Positions 51,001-54,000 of a stretch of 64,000 nucleotides of DNA are shown piece by piece. Every line of letters begins with the position of its first letter. Within the stretch, counting starts at the first letter, position 1. The position numbers were made by a program. This DNA is from Candidatus Woesearchaeota archaeon (GTDB taxonomy: Archaea; Nanobdellota; Nanobdellia; Woesearchaeales; SKGA01): the NCBI GenBank assembly GCA_046546105.1, contig JBKGYN010000001.1, positions 52,441 through 116,440 on the forward strand, read 5' to 3'.

Positions 51001-54000
51001 ATGCTTCTTGATGATTCGAAGCGTACGATGGGTCAGGAGCTCGATGTGCAAAAGAGCATTTTTGATAATGAGCAGAAGCTCGGTGAAAAATGTTCTGAAC
51101 TCAACAAAAGGTATGGGGCTCTTTACGAATCCTTATCCGAGGTTATCAGTAAGATCTCCTCTTCAGAATGATTGGTGGAAAGGTGAATATGTATGGACGA
51201 AAAATCTCCTGTTTTCATAAAAATCGATGAATATCGCAAGGTGCTTGACCTGGTTGATGATTTGAAGAAAAAGACTGGTGAAGTGCGTAGCACTATCAAC
51301 GAGATCAAAGAACTCCGTGACAAGGAAGAGGAGACATTGCAGTTCTGGCAACAGAAGATTGATGATGTTGATAAGAAGATACTGTTCGTTGACCAGACCT
51401 TGTTCGAACCCGAATCGTAATTTTTTTCCATGAGGGAACCCTATGGCTGACCATTCATATTTCGTGAGGATACCTGACTACGAGCTTATCAAGCTGGCGC
51501 TTCTTGAGAGTGCGAAGGAGTCGCTTCTCTCTTCCAAAGCGTATCACGAGCTTCTGGAGATCCGTAAGGAAAAGGAAGATGCTATAAAGAAGCTCAAGAC
51601 AGAAGCTACCGCTATGATGGAGTTGTTTGAGAAGCTTGTCTCCGTCCTTCCTCACAGTGAAGAGATGTTGCAATCCTCGCCTGAACCTTCCCCTGCTAAG
51701 AAGAGCTCTCCATCTAAAAAGACTTCTTCTAAGAAGTCTTCTTCGTCAAAGCATGATGCAGAGCTTGATCGTCTCAATAAGGCCTTATCTGATATTGAGC
51801 GCAAGCTTGAGCACCTCTCGTGAATTGTTTTCTTCCTCGCTTTTTTCCTTGCCAAAGCTTTTATAAACAGCTTGTTCTTCCCTTCTCGTCGGCCGTTCCC
51901 ACTTTTCTTGCGGGGATGCCGGAGCGGCCAAACGGGACAGACTCAAGGCATTTGAGTGCTGAGCATACGAGCTTGGTGAAAAGCTCTTGCGATGAAGAAC
52001 TATGTGAGTCATCTGTTGGCTTAGTGCCTACAAGGGTTCGAATCCCTTTCCCCGCAGATTTTTTCCAGAAAATCGAGGAGTAAGGTTCCTGAGCGTCAGT
52101 GAGGATATCTTTCCCCGCACTTCGTTCTCTTTCGTTCACTTCGTGCGGCTCAAGGGCTTCGAAGTCTTCGGATTCTCTTCGTTCATCCTTGAGTTCCGAA
52201 AGCTTCGCTTCCGTAACAATCCCTTTCCCCGCAGATTTTTTTCGAAAAAATCGAGGAGTAAGGTTCCTGAGCGTCAGTGAGGATATCTTTCCCCGCACTT
52301 CGTTCTCTTTCGGCATTTTTTTATAGCTTTGCCTGTTTTCATTTCTTTTATGGGAATCAAACTTATACCGCTCGGTGGTTTTGGTGAAGTGGGTCGTAAC
52401 TGTCTCGCTGTCGATGTCGATGGTAAGATCATCCTGCTTGACATGGGCTTTCATCTTGAGCGCTACCTTGAAGCTACAGAGGATGATTTTGCTGCGAAAC
52501 GCCATGTGAAGCGTCGTCTCATCTCCTCGGGCGCTCTTCCCGATGTTCGTCTCCTGCGTCGTCGTCGTGACGATGTTGTCGGTATCGTTTGTTCTCACGC
52601 CCATCTCGATCACATCGGTGCCATTCCTTTTCTCGCGAGCCATTTCTCCTGCCCTGTGCATGCGACTCCTTACACCTCGCAGGTCATCCGTTCGCTTGTC
52701 GAGGACAGGGGTGCCAAAGCGAAAGTCATCGCTCACGATCCGTCTGCCACTTTCACCGTTGGCGGTCTCCGGGTTGAATTTATCCCTGTTTCTCACTCCA
52801 CGCCACAGACTGTGGCTGTCGTGATCCACACTGGCGAGGGTGCTGTCATCTATGCTAACGATTATAAGGAAGACACTGACCCTCCCTTTGGTCTCCCCAC
52901 GGACATCTCTCGTCTCAAGGAATTGAAGGGTTCTGTTAGAGCGCTCGTGCTTGATTCTTTGTACGCTCCTTCACAGGATTTTTCTGAAGGGGAGCGGGTT
53001 GCTCGTGAAGACGTGCTATCTTTAAAAGATGAGGTTGCTGGTTCGAGAGCGATTGTCGTATCGACTTTTTCCTCTCACATCTATCGTTTGCAGACTTTAT
53101 GCGATCTTGCTGACAGTCTTGGCAGGGCGGTTGTTTTCATGGGGCGTTCCCTTGATAGGTACATGACTGCTGCCTCTGAGACTGGTATTCTTGACCTTTC
53201 TTCTCGCGGTAAAGTTCTCAAATACCGTCGCCAGATTGATTCCTTTCTCCGTGGAGTCGAGGATCCATCAGAATATTTTTTCATCACCACTGGTCATCAG
53301 GGCGAACCTGAAGCGGTCTTGCGGCGCATGGCTGACGGGCTTTTTGATTTTCATAGTAGTGACTCTGTCATCTTCTCCTGTAACGTGATTCCTGTCCCTA
53401 CTTCCATTCAGAATCGTCGTATCCTTGAGTCCCTCTTAAAAAAACAGGGTGTTCATATTATCTCTGACGTGCATGTCTCGGGTCATGCCTTCGCTAACGA
53501 TCACGATCACTTGCTTTCAATACTCTGTCCTGACTATCTCATCCCTTCTCATGCTGAGCCGCCTATGATCGAGGCGATGCGTGTTATTGCATCCAAGAAA
53601 GGCATCACTGGCCATCGTTTCAGGGATCTCGTTGTCGGTGATGAGCTGGAGTTATGAGGCTTTGTTCCTCTCGCCTTCCTGAAAACATAATATTTATAAA
53701 GCCGGTCTCGGTTGTATTCCTTGTAAGATACGTATATTCACTAATGTTAGTGTTTTTGATGGGGATGCGGTATGAAATTAACTTTGTCTGAACCGAAATA
53801 TTTCAAGGATAGCCTTTCTATTATTTCTGAAATCGTCACTGAAGCGACCTTCAGGGTCAAAAGAGACATGGTCGAGCTTGTTGCCATGGACCCGGCTAAC
53901 GTCGCTCTTGTGGTTTTCCGTCTCGTCTCGAGTGCCTTTGTCACGTATGAGATTGACGGTACCACGGATATTACTGTGAATCTCAATAATCTCAAGCAAG

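What the first reader, a model, noticed from the sequence alone, without database searches (positions are those of the whole stretch)
51910..52330. Intron-containing tRNA-Leu(CAA) followed by direct repeats carrying four copies of the tRNA 3' end: att-like integration scars?
The tRNA has a 63-nt intron at position 37/38. Immediately downstream, two ~95-bp direct repeats (52042-52134 and 52218-52312) each contain two copies of the 11-12-nt tRNA 3'-terminal sequence CTTTCCCCGCA. The first repeat starts inside the tRNA itself. Short partial duplications of a tRNA 3' end are the classic footprint (attL/attR core) of integrase-mediated insertion or excision of proviruses and integrative plasmids at tRNA genes. 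No integrase or cargo remains in the window, so this would be a remnant of serial integration and excision, or the repeats may be co-transcribed processing or termination elements.
Basis: seen in the sequence. Interest (0 to 1): 0.55.

Follow-up and report, generated by a model that had tools for sequence, protein, structure and literature searches.

The report
Gene-end-copying hairpin repeats after tRNA-Leu
Behind an intron-containing tRNA-Leu gene of a tiny DPANN archaeon sit tandem hairpin modules that each end in a copy of the tRNA's last 11-16 bases. The same kind of module copies the end of the nearby PCNA gene, so they look like conserved, terminator-like gene-end repeats rather than scars left by integrating viruses or plasmids.

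Summary
It consists of a tRNA-Leu(CAA) with a 63-nt intron at 37/38, four exact CTTTCCCCGCA copies, and two ~95-nt direct repeats (92/95 identical), the first starting inside the tRNA.

The integrase "att scar" reading is poorly supported:
- No integrase, Cas1, reverse transcriptase or cargo lies in the window or in about 11 related loci.
- No match was found in viral, phage or plasmid collections.
- The pieces between copies are only 52-114 nt. They fall into two unit types (S, U) kept in four Woesearchaeota/Nanobdellota species whose RNase J is only 61-77% identical and whose synonymous sites are saturated.
- The S body is 75-87% identical between species. The U hairpin survives through different complementary stems.
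- In other lineages the copies track that lineage's own tRNA 3' end.
- The same hairpin core sits behind PCNA, 2.4 kb away, flanked by copies of the last ~20 nt of that coding sequence. Strains differ in copy number there.

Best reading: these are conserved gene-end hairpin/oligo-T modules made from direct plus inverted copies of the gene terminus. They probably arose by replication template switching and slippage, and probably act in transcript 3'-end formation.

A small mobile element that makes long target duplications (casposon-like) remains a serious rival. Function is untested.

The parts
51860..51867 (+). TATA-like box (TTTATAAA) upstream of the tRNA gene. The motif AAAG(A/C)TTTTATAAA is the only conserved part of the 5' flank in relatives.
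   Evidence: Read from the sequence and from comparison with L009, L047 and L010. Its role as a promoter is inferred.
51910..52056 (+). tRNA-Leu(CAA): exon 1 at 51910-51947, a 63-nt intron at 51948-52010 in the canonical 37/38 position, and exon 2 at 52011-52056.
   Evidence: ARAGORN -i. The exons are 96-100% identical in L009, L010 and L047. The bulge-helix-bulge was drawn by hand.
52046..52056 (+). X copy 1, CTTTCCCCGCA: tRNA positions 63-73 (T-stem 3' strand, acceptor 3' strand and discriminator A). It is followed by GATTTTTT.
52057..52119 (+). Unit U1. It consists of an A/T hairpin with T6 (52057-52074), an imperfect inverted copy of X, GAGGAGTAAGG (52075-52085), hairpin 2 TCCT/AGGA with loop GAGCGTCAGTG (52087-52105), and X copy 2 (52109-52119).
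52120..52233 (+). Unit S. The body (52120-52217) holds a degenerate copy of the tRNA variable-arm/T-arm (CTTCGTGCGGCTCAAGGGCTTCGAA) and a near-invariant core (GAAGTCTTCGGATTCTCTTCGTTCATCCTTGAGTT). It ends in AATCC plus X copy 3 (52218-52233), which is followed by T7.
52234..52297 (+). Unit U2, a near-identical copy of U1. Its first hairpin is the perfect palindrome GATTTTTTTCGAAAAAAATC-like sequence. It ends in X copy 4 (52287-52297).
52298..52312 (+). A copy of the first 15 nt of S (CTTCGTTCTCTTTCG), which forms the end of the 95-nt direct repeat. In another strain (L008) the first 4-5 nt read GATT instead.
52320..52326 (+). TATA-like box (TTTATAG) of the downstream RNase J gene. The gene runs 52350-53657 and encodes 435 aa.
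   Evidence: Sequence. The protein is 100% identical to P0001 and has RNase_J_b_CASP Pfam hits. Its role as a promoter is inferred.
54489..54628 (+). A second array of the same kind, behind PCNA (53772-54512). The last 21 nt of the coding sequence plus the TAG stop (54489-54512) are repeated at 54545-54568 and, without the stop, at 54601-54620. The copies are separated by bodies TTTTCGCGTGAGGTTCGAGAGCTTCAGTGAC(C) carrying the U-type hairpin, and the array ends in T8.
   Evidence: TRF gives period 56, 2.4 copies and 100% matches. L001 and L007 carry one unit fewer.

Best explanation
The tRNA 3'-end copies are the 3' strands of a conserved, lineage-specific family of gene-end hairpin modules. 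They are not leftovers of an integrated element.

Each module consists of four parts:
- a pyrimidine/T-rich start;
- an imperfect inverted copy of the gene's terminal sequence;
- a small internal hairpin with a conserved GA...GUGA loop;
- a direct copy of the gene's last 11-23 nt, frequently followed by an oligo-T tract.

Inferred origin. Replication template switching copies the gene terminus in a direct-inverted-direct pattern, a miniature inverted triplication. Slippage or unequal recombination between the direct copies then changes unit number. Ectopic copying moves the hairpin core between the two neighbouring loci (tRNA-Leu and PCNA, 2.4 kb apart).

Inferred function. In the transcript, the inverted copy pairs with the downstream direct copy to give a hairpin, in most cases in front of a U-tract. 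This would give back-up termination or 3'-end protection, shielding the co-directional RNase J gene and, behind PCNA, the response-regulator gene from read-through.

What is shown: the anatomy, the conservation, the differing complementary stems, the presence at two gene types, and the copy-number polymorphism. What is inferred: the mutational mechanism and the termination function.
For: 1. Not tRNA-specific. A 56-nt tandem unit behind PCNA repeats the last 21 nt of the coding sequence plus the stop codon. It carries a hairpin core 18/21 identical to the tRNA-linked U of L010. L009 and L011 also repeat their own PCNA ends.

2. Conserved. S and U occur behind tRNA-Leu in the window species, L009, L010 and L047. 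Profile searches find them nowhere else in the ~480 kb of sequence held at that point, of which roughly a third is archaeal. The S body is 75-87% identical between species, while RNase J third-codon positions are 37-47% identical and the flanks 59-74%.

3. Structure kept. All 10 distinct units have the internal hairpin, with summed score 99 against 50.6 +/- 14.5 in shuffles, and 0 of 2000 shuffles reach it. The stems differ: TCCT/AGGA, TAG/CTA, GTCC/GGAC, GGTCG/TGACC, GTTC/GAAT. RNAalifold finds pairs changed on both sides.

4. Copies follow the local gene. L052 repeats CTCTCCTCGCA, L054 repeats CCTATCCCCTCA, and the S of L047 ends AACCCC like its own tRNA.

5. Inverted copy of the terminus beyond chance. 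This holds in L052 (p 0.004), L011-PCNA (p 0.002) and S (p 0.006). The direct/inverted/direct pattern matches a known class of replication error (PMC13334657).

6. Ongoing slippage. The PCNA array has 2 units in the window and 1 in L001 and L007.

7. Oligo-T. L059 carries three tandem hairpin + T5 units lacking the acceptor half of X. T6-T8 directly follows two of the four X copies in the window and the PCNA array, and a T7 lies 15 nt after the fourth X copy. Four consecutive oligo-dT terminators are documented for an archaeal gene (PMC2253867).

8. No mobile-element genes anywhere nearby.
Against: - No transcript data exist, so termination or stabilisation is pure inference.
- Archaeal RNA polymerase terminates at oligo-T without needing a hairpin. 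A terminator also does not need a direct copy of the gene end or 75-87% sequence conservation of S.
- In the window the two U-X units are followed by the S start (CTTCGTTC), not by a T-run.
- The simple terminator scan found nothing.
- S shows no pairs changed on both sides, so its constraint looks sequence-specific and remains unexplained.
- The inverted copy is weak in the U units of the window clade (p 0.15-0.6).
- Local template switching does not by itself explain why the same hairpin core is found at two loci.
- Only two loci per genome were seen, and whole genomes could not be searched.
Confidence: 0.45

Rival explanations
1. A small non-autonomous mobile element. U, and perhaps S, would insert exactly at gene 3' ends and create long target-site duplications of 11-23 bp. 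Insertion would be by a casposase-like (Cas1-solo) enzyme or another staggered-cut or target-primed mechanism supplied in trans. Tandem arrays would come from repeated use of the gene-proximal copy.
For: - The same hairpin core occurs at two different targets and in different species (18/21 identity between the L010 tRNA unit and the window PCNA unit).
- The window arrangement tRNA-X-U-X-S equals the tRNA-X-S of its relatives plus one U and one 11-nt duplication.
- Copies decay with distance from the tRNA in L009 and L047, as expected for polar addition.
- Casposons target the 3'-distal part of tRNA-Leu genes and of the aEF-2 gene, make 14-35 bp duplications, form tandem arrays sharing a duplication, and leave solo ends (PMC4779613).
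- On the minus strand each unit ends in an A-run just before the duplicated target.
Against: - There are no terminal inverted repeats in U or S (sequence).
- Duplication length is not fixed (11, 16, 20-23 nt, and 30-50 nt for S and L054).
- No Cas1, PolB, transposase or reverse transcriptase occurs in 64 kb or in the related loci.
- Only two neighbouring loci carry the units.
- S and U sit at the same place in four species, and S variants broadly group as the RNase J tree does (the window and L009 share one form of the 3' third, L010 and L047 the other), although S identity does not track RNase J identity throughout. This is read as vertical inheritance.
- No copies occur in IMG/VR, phage or plasmid collections.
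Confidence: 0.2
2. One reading: attL/attR-type scars of serial integration and loss of proviruses or integrative plasmids by a tyrosine integrase that targets the 3' end (T-loop region) of tRNA-Leu(CAA).
For: - The direct repeats are identical to the tRNA 3' end, and similarity is weaker further upstream (degenerate T-arm in S, U, L052 and L054).
- Copies decay with distance from the gene.
- The locus is variable: an Mrr-like gene in L009 and L047 and a small membrane-protein gene in L053.
- An IMG/VR contig of another archaeal lineage carries a 3' half of a tRNA-Leu(CAA) as an att-like fragment.
- tRNA fragments left by integration are common in archaea (PMC9897764).
- The distal PCNA-end copy of L009 equals the PCNA end of another species (L051) at 21/21 positions, as if imported.
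Against: - No integrase or kb-scale cargo was found in any of about 11 loci or in the window.
- No attP was found in the collections.
- The inserts of 52-114 nt have identical boundaries in four species and are under constraint.
- The hairpin is kept through different complementary stems, which is not expected of integrase arm sites.
- The same module follows PCNA with a different 'core'.
- The Mrr genes of L009 and L047 are orthologues (47% identity), so they are not obviously cargo.
- Precise excision leaves no scar.
Confidence: 0.12
3. The units encode small stable RNAs with a tRNA-like end. These would be acceptor/T-arm 'minihelix' mimics, co-transcribed with the tRNA, released by RNase Z, perhaps CCA-tailed, and with a function of their own (protein binding, decoy, regulation).
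For: - Unit plus X folds as an imperfect acceptor/T-stem helix with an enlarged loop (RNAfold). This is strong in L052 (z -2.6 and -3.4) and in S (z -2.9).
- The copy always ends exactly at the discriminator base.
- S has a near-invariant 36-nt core.
- The hairpin loop has conserved GA...GUGA, which allows tandem sheared G-A pairs.
- tRNA-like processing signals are known from general knowledge (plant mitochondrial t-elements; the tRNA-like element upstream of haloarchaeal 5S rRNA). This was not checked here.
Against: - The PCNA-linked units end in a copy of a coding sequence, not of a tRNA end.
- The acceptor-like helix of the window U units has three mismatches and an unremarkable energy (z -0.7 to -0.9).
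- There is no canonical T-loop and no Rfam match.
- No promoter-like AT-rich box lies inside the units.
Confidence: 0.1
4. An assembly artefact: the repeats were created by mis-assembly of a hairpin-rich region.
For: Contigs of the same species break in the tRNA or the array. In L009, L010 and L047, 100-N gaps are flanked by exact 46-99-nt duplications that are scaffold overlaps.
Against: The window and an independent assembly (L001) agree across the region, differing only by one T in a T-run and one base near the RNase J start. The two 95-nt copies differ at three positions. Arrays with diverged units occur in ungapped sequence of L009, L047, L052, L054 and L059.
Confidence: 0.03

Closest known systems
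tRNA-gene att sites of archaeal integrative elements (SSV-type or pNOB8-type tyrosine integrases; e.g. PYG1 with 44-bp repeats in tRNA-Gln, PMC9897764)
   Same: A direct repeat identical to the 3' part of a tRNA gene, with the complete gene at one end.
   Different: There is no integrase, no cargo and no attP-bearing element. The identity block is only 11-16 nt and the spacers 52-114 nt, and both are conserved across species. The same module duplicates a protein-gene end.
Casposon target-site duplications and tandem or solo-end remnants (PMC4779613)
   Same: Insertions at the 3'-distal part of tRNA-Leu genes and of a protein gene (aEF-2). The duplications are long (14-35 bp). Tandem arrays share one duplication, and the target ends in ...CGCA followed by AT-rich DNA.
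   Different: There are no terminal inverted repeats and no Cas1 or PolB. The duplication length is variable, and the units are tens of nucleotides rather than kilobases.
Tandem oligo-dT terminators of archaeal genes (Pyrococcus histone gene with four consecutive terminators, PMC2253867; U-tract plus aCPSF1, PMC8716108)
   Same: Several T-tracts in a row directly behind a highly expressed gene and in front of a co-directional neighbour.
   Different: Here each tract comes with a conserved hairpin and a copy of the gene's own terminus. Activity has not been tested.
Small inverted triplications (direct/inverted/direct) from replication template switching, removed or expanded by slippage over the hairpin (PMC13334657)
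   Same: The direct-inverted-direct arrangement of one short sequence, the potential to form a hairpin, and copy-number instability.
   Different: Those events are about 150 bp, transient, and described in yeast, cancer genomes and E. coli plasmids. Here the copies are 11-23 nt, fixed, conserved across genera, and carry an extra shared hairpin core.
Split or disrupted archaeal tRNA genes (Nanoarchaeum split halves, non-canonical T-loop introns)
   Same: A DPANN host, an intron-containing tRNA, and extra pieces of tRNA sequence next to the gene. S resembles a T-arm interrupted after TTCGAA.
   Different: The tRNA gene is complete on its own. The units lack a T-loop and anticodon-stem strand, and no bulge-helix-bulge can be drawn at the S interruption.

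Membership tests
Integrase att scar at a tRNA gene | A direct repeat identical to the 3' part of the tRNA | tested here: met
   There are four exact 11-nt copies, and 16 nt for the S copy.
Integrase att scar at a tRNA gene | An integrase gene (whole or split) and element cargo between or beside the repeats | tested here: not met
   Pfam scans or precomputed Pfam annotation cover most of the larger ORFs of the window, and the genes called in the related loci carry precomputed Pfam annotation. None shows an integrase, and the spacers are 52-114 nt.
Integrase att scar at a tRNA gene | A matching attP on a virus or plasmid, or occupied versus empty sites among relatives | tested here: not met
   IMG/VR pattern scans, phage BLAST and plasmid BLAST were all negative for U, S and the clade's tRNA 3' part. 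Relatives differ only in small units. The whole genomes of the clade could not be searched.
Integrase att scar at a tRNA gene | Neutral decay of the remnant | tested here: not met
   The S body is 75-87% identical where synonymous sites are saturated, and the hairpin is kept through different complementary stems.
Casposon or MITE-type insertion | Terminal inverted repeats | tested here: not met
   The ends of U, S and the PCNA unit are not complementary to each other (sequences).
Casposon or MITE-type insertion | A target-site duplication of characteristic length flanking each copy | tested here: inconclusive
   Flanking duplications exist, but their lengths are 11, 16, 20-23 and 30-50 nt.
Casposon or MITE-type insertion | Multiple dispersed copies, and an enzyme (Cas1-solo or transposase) in the genome | tested here: inconclusive
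   Only two neighbouring loci were found in the sequence held (~480 kb in the U/S profile search, ~510 kb in the core search; roughly a third archaeal), and no enzyme in the 64-kb window. The rest of the genome is not available.
Archaeal oligo-T terminator, tandem | A run of at least 5 T directly after the transcript end, repeated | tested here: inconclusive
   T6, T7 and T8 follow the tRNA, S-X and the PCNA array, and T5 follows each L059 unit. The two U-X junctions of the window lack a T-run.
Archaeal oligo-T terminator, tandem | Transcripts end there | not testable with these tools
   No RNA data are available.
Small inverted triplication (direct/inverted/direct) | An inverted copy of the duplicated segment between the two direct copies | tested here: inconclusive
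   It is significant in L052, L011-PCNA and S (p 0.002-0.006). It is not significant in the U units or in L053 and L054.
Split or permuted tRNA piece | A complete half with T-loop, plus a bulge-helix-bulge or complementary leader | tested here: not met
   The units have no 7-nt T-loop, there is no BHB at the S interruption, and the gene is complete. ARAGORN finds one tRNA only.
Known RNA family (Rfam 15) | A covariance-model match | tested here: not met
   There were no hits at gathering score, and only chance-level hits at E up to 10.

The most novel reading that the evidence does not exclude
Woesearchaeota carry a previously undescribed class of miniature elements that home to the exact 3' end of genes, tRNA and protein-coding alike, and copy 11-23 nt of the gene terminus. 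One possibility is a new insertion mechanism with long, variable target duplications (casposase-like or target-primed). The other is a functional 'terminus-copy' switch: the real gene end and its downstream copy compete for the same inverted segment, so that termination senses tRNA folding or ribosome arrival at the stop codon.
Probability: 0.2. Interest if true: 0.75.

Novelty: new variant of a known kind. Interest (0 to 1): 0.55.

Why it matters
Short duplications of a tRNA 3' end are routinely read as footprints of integrated viruses and plasmids. This case shows the same footprint arising in another way. It is conserved, structured, tracks each lineage's own gene end, and also occurs behind a protein-coding gene.

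If the modules are terminators or 3'-end protectors, they give a first view of how gene boundaries are built in the very compact genomes of DPANN archaea, for which almost nothing is known about transcript ends.

If they are mobile, they would be a new kind of gene-end-targeting mini-element.

There is also a practical point. These hairpin arrays break metagenome assemblies and leave duplicated scaffold joins.

Tried and rejected
- Metagenome scan with CTTTCCCCGCAGATTTTT gave 33 hits, all unrelated chance matches. The scan was wasted.
- IMG/VR scans for U-X, the S core and the clade's variable-arm/T-arm found nothing. The tRNA 3' 22-mer hit only two contigs of another archaeal lineage.
- BLAST of the array against plasmids and phages gave no match.
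- Rfam gave nothing.
- The simple promoter/terminator scan found nothing. It is bacterial-type and not suited to this organism.
- Coding potential of S on the minus strand was considered. A 16-33-aa MNEEN... ORF appears in 3 of 4 species but is frameshifted in L010, and its changes are non-synonymous. I rejected it from the sequences.
- Box C/D, H/ACA and canonical K-turn readings of U and S do not fit the consensus positions. This was judged by eye and is not a formal test.
- ORB/replication-origin reading: the motif orientation is wrong. The likely origin lies next to cdc6 at about 5-6 kb instead.
- A covariance model of U was abandoned, because the MAFFT alignment puts the stems in different registers.
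- My first exact look-up of RNase J failed because I started one codon late. The true start is 52350.
- I first read S and U as duplicated in L009, L010 and L047. I withdrew this: the duplicates flank 100-N scaffold gaps and are overlaps.
- The Mrr-like gene was considered as island cargo. The L009 and L047 copies are orthologues (47% identity), so it is more likely an ancestral gene lost in the window species.
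Full report
**1. What is there**

The window comes from a DPANN archaeon. Its relatives are labelled Woesearchaeota or Nanobdellota. The whole 64 kb is housekeeping: MCM, TBP, Orc1/Cdc6, PolD, primase, the ribosomal-protein cluster, SecY, RadA, gyrase A, ScpB, RNase J, PCNA and ThiI.

ARAGORN with introns enabled finds a single tRNA. 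It is tRNA-Leu(CAA) at 51910-52056, with a 63-nt intron after G37. Default ARAGORN and Rfam miss it. A canonical bulge-helix-bulge can be drawn by hand.

The two ~95-nt direct repeats are real and 92/95 identical (52041-52134 and 52218-52312). The four exact CTTTCCCCGCA copies ("X") are also real, against about 0.9 expected even with one mismatch. A second assembly of the same species gives the same arrangement, apart from one extra T in a T-run and one base near the RNase J start.

**2. Anatomy**

Splitting the region at the X copies gives two unit types.

- U is about 52 nt. It has an A/T hairpin containing a T-run, then GAGGAGTAAGG (an imperfect inverted copy of X), then a small hairpin (TCCT / loop GAGCGTCAGTG / AGGA).
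- S is about 98 nt. It contains a degenerate copy of the tRNA variable-arm/T-arm and a near-invariant core. It ends in AATCC+X.

The window reads tRNA-X, U-X, S-X, U-X, then the first 15 nt of S, then the RNase J promoter. RNase J starts at 52350.

**3. Relatives**

The gene order (126-aa coiled-coil gene, tRNA-Leu(CAA), RNase J, PCNA) is conserved.

S and U follow the tRNA in L009, L010 and L047, whose RNase J is 77%, 70% and 61% identical to the window's. The 100-N gaps in those records are flanked by exact duplications, also at an unrelated hairpin. They are therefore scaffold overlaps, and each of these genomes probably has one S.

Profile searches find S and U only at this locus in the ~480 kb held at that point.

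RNase J third-codon positions are only 37-47% identical between these species, which means they are saturated. The S body is nevertheless 75-87% identical, against 59-74% for T-rich flanks. S variants broadly group as the RNase J tree does, although S identity between L010 and L047 (0.87) is higher than their RNase J identity would predict; a single replacement of the 3' third in the window/L009 lineage would account for this. I read the pattern as vertical inheritance under constraint, not as recent debris.

The small hairpin is present in all 10 distinct units with different, complementary stems. The summed score is 99 against 50.6 +/- 14.5 in shuffles, and 0 of 2000 shuffles reach it. RNAalifold finds pairs changed on both sides.

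**4. The copies follow the local gene**

More distant lineages have their own versions.

- L052 has two 68-nt units, each ending in that tRNA's own 3' end (CTCTCCTCGCA). Each contains a strong inverted copy of it.
- L053 has one structured unit ending in CTTTCCCCACA.
- L054 repeats CCTATTCCCTCA plus about 35 nt of flank, and has an S-like interrupted T-arm.
- L059 has three tandem U-like hairpins, each followed by T5, that lack the acceptor half of X.
- L049, L051 and L011 have a single X.

**5. The decisive observation**

The same thing happens behind PCNA, 2.4 kb downstream. The last 21 nt of the coding sequence plus the TAG stop are repeated with a 56-nt period, 2.4 copies at 100% identity (54488-54619). 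The array ends in T8.

The spacer carries a hairpin core 18/21 identical to the tRNA-linked U of L010. Two other strains have one unit fewer.

L009 has a U-like body behind its PCNA, 24/35 identical to the window's tRNA-U, followed by a copy of its own PCNA end. L011 repeats its PCNA end 60 nt downstream.

The L009 distal copy differs from the real gene end only at third-codon positions and in the stop codon. It equals the PCNA end of L051 at 21/21 positions. This is unexplained. It could mean constraint, a frozen ancestral state, or import.

**6. Interpretation**

A tRNA-specific integrase site does not explain a module that also duplicates a protein-gene end. It does not explain conserved spacers of 52-114 nt with a hairpin kept through different complementary stems. 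It is also hard to square with the absence of any integrase, cargo or attP in the window, in about 11 loci and in three collections.

In several units the body contains an inverted copy of the gene terminus beyond chance (p 0.002-0.006 in L052, L011-PCNA and S). The pattern is therefore direct-inverted-direct. This is the signature of replication template switching, and such structures are known to gain and lose copies by slippage over the hairpin (PMC13334657).

In RNA, the inverted copy and the downstream direct copy form a hairpin, in most cases in front of a U-tract. Tandem oligo-dT terminators are documented in archaea (PMC2253867).

I therefore favour conserved gene-end, terminator-like or 3'-end-protecting modules. 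Their origin by template switching and slippage, and their function, are inferences.

**7. What does not fit**

- S is conserved at the sequence level without supporting covariation.
- The window's U-X junctions lack a T-run.
- The shared hairpin core at two loci needs copying between loci.

The last point keeps a mobile mini-element alive as the main rival. The closest analogue is the casposon, which targets the 3' ends of tRNA-Leu and aEF-2 genes, makes 14-35 bp duplications and forms tandem arrays (PMC4779613). But U and S lack terminal inverted repeats, the duplication length varies, and no Cas1 is present.

**8. Verdict**

The family (S, U and their PCNA-linked relatives) matches nothing in Rfam 15, and four full-text literature searches on related themes turned up nothing like it. 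I rate it a new variant of known kinds (gene-end terminator hairpins; template-switch duplications). There is a modest chance of something more unusual.

Noticed in passing
window 54488-54628: A tandem array behind PCNA repeats the last 21 nt of the coding sequence plus the stop codon. It has a U-type hairpin in each spacer. There are 2 units here and 1 in strains L001 and L007.
   Followed up: yes
window 51948-52010; L059 2240-2294; L011 9738-9786; L054 1928-1982: The tRNA-Leu intron carries CUGA...GAUGA in the window clade. In L059, L011 and L054 it carries a perfect GUGAUGA ... CUGA pair (box C/D-like, able to form a K-turn). It could be an L7Ae-binding or guide element inside the intron.
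   Followed up: no
window 4788-6024: An AT-rich intergenic stretch (GC 0.36) with short tandem repeats at 5126-5150 and 5498-5544. It lies directly upstream of Orc1/Cdc6 (6025-7242) and near MCM, PolD and primase. It is a likely replication origin.
   Followed up: no
window 35835-36017: About eight copies of TTGAGACTG at 11-nt spacing lie in the intergenic region between a minus-strand ORF (35197-35835) and the ORFs leading to RadA (36459-37394). They look like a protein-binding array.
   Followed up: no
L002-L005 (ends), L007 and L008 (starts): Four of five contigs carrying the upstream gene stop inside the tRNA 5' half or intron (window-equivalent 51937-51973). Downstream contigs start inside U2 (window-equivalent 52247 for L007 and 52268 for L008). 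L008 has GATT instead of CTTCG after the last X, which is a strain variant at the junction.
   Followed up: partly
L009 9441-9899 (-), L047 5454-5903 (-): A small Mrr_cat (PD-(D/E)xK) gene sits between the array and RNase J in two species. The two copies are 47% identical orthologues. The gene is absent from the window and from L010.
   Followed up: partly
L053 264-533: An 89-aa predicted membrane-protein gene with its own TATA-like box is inserted between the tRNA unit and RNase J in one lineage. It has no Pfam hit.
   Followed up: no
L012 13411-13465; L013 13907-13992: An IMG/VR contig carries only the 3' half of an intron-less tRNA-Leu(CAA) of another archaeal lineage, an att-like fragment. 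A second contig carries the whole gene.
   Followed up: partly
L009 12850-13041; L009 8868-9165; L010 9727-9934; L047 5114-5312: 100-N gaps are flanked by exact 46-99-nt duplications at hairpin-rich sites. These are scaffold joins with overlapping ends and can be mistaken for real repeats.
   Followed up: yes
L011 9700-9835: ARAGORN calls this gene tRNA-Val(CAC) with a 49-nt intron. By sequence it is the orthologous tRNA-Leu(CAA) with a different intron. Both L011 and L053 encode CCA after the discriminator.
   Followed up: partly
window 51861-52829 (-): A 322-aa open frame runs antisense through the tRNA, the array and the start of RNase J. It is explained by the pyrimidine-rich + strand and is not a gene.
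   Followed up: partly
L009 12154-12210 and L011 12153-12214: The distal PCNA-end copies lie in frame with PCNA (36 and 39 nt after the stop) and keep a stop codon (TAA). In L011 the frame is open across the spacer. In L009 it is closed by TGA.
   Followed up: partly
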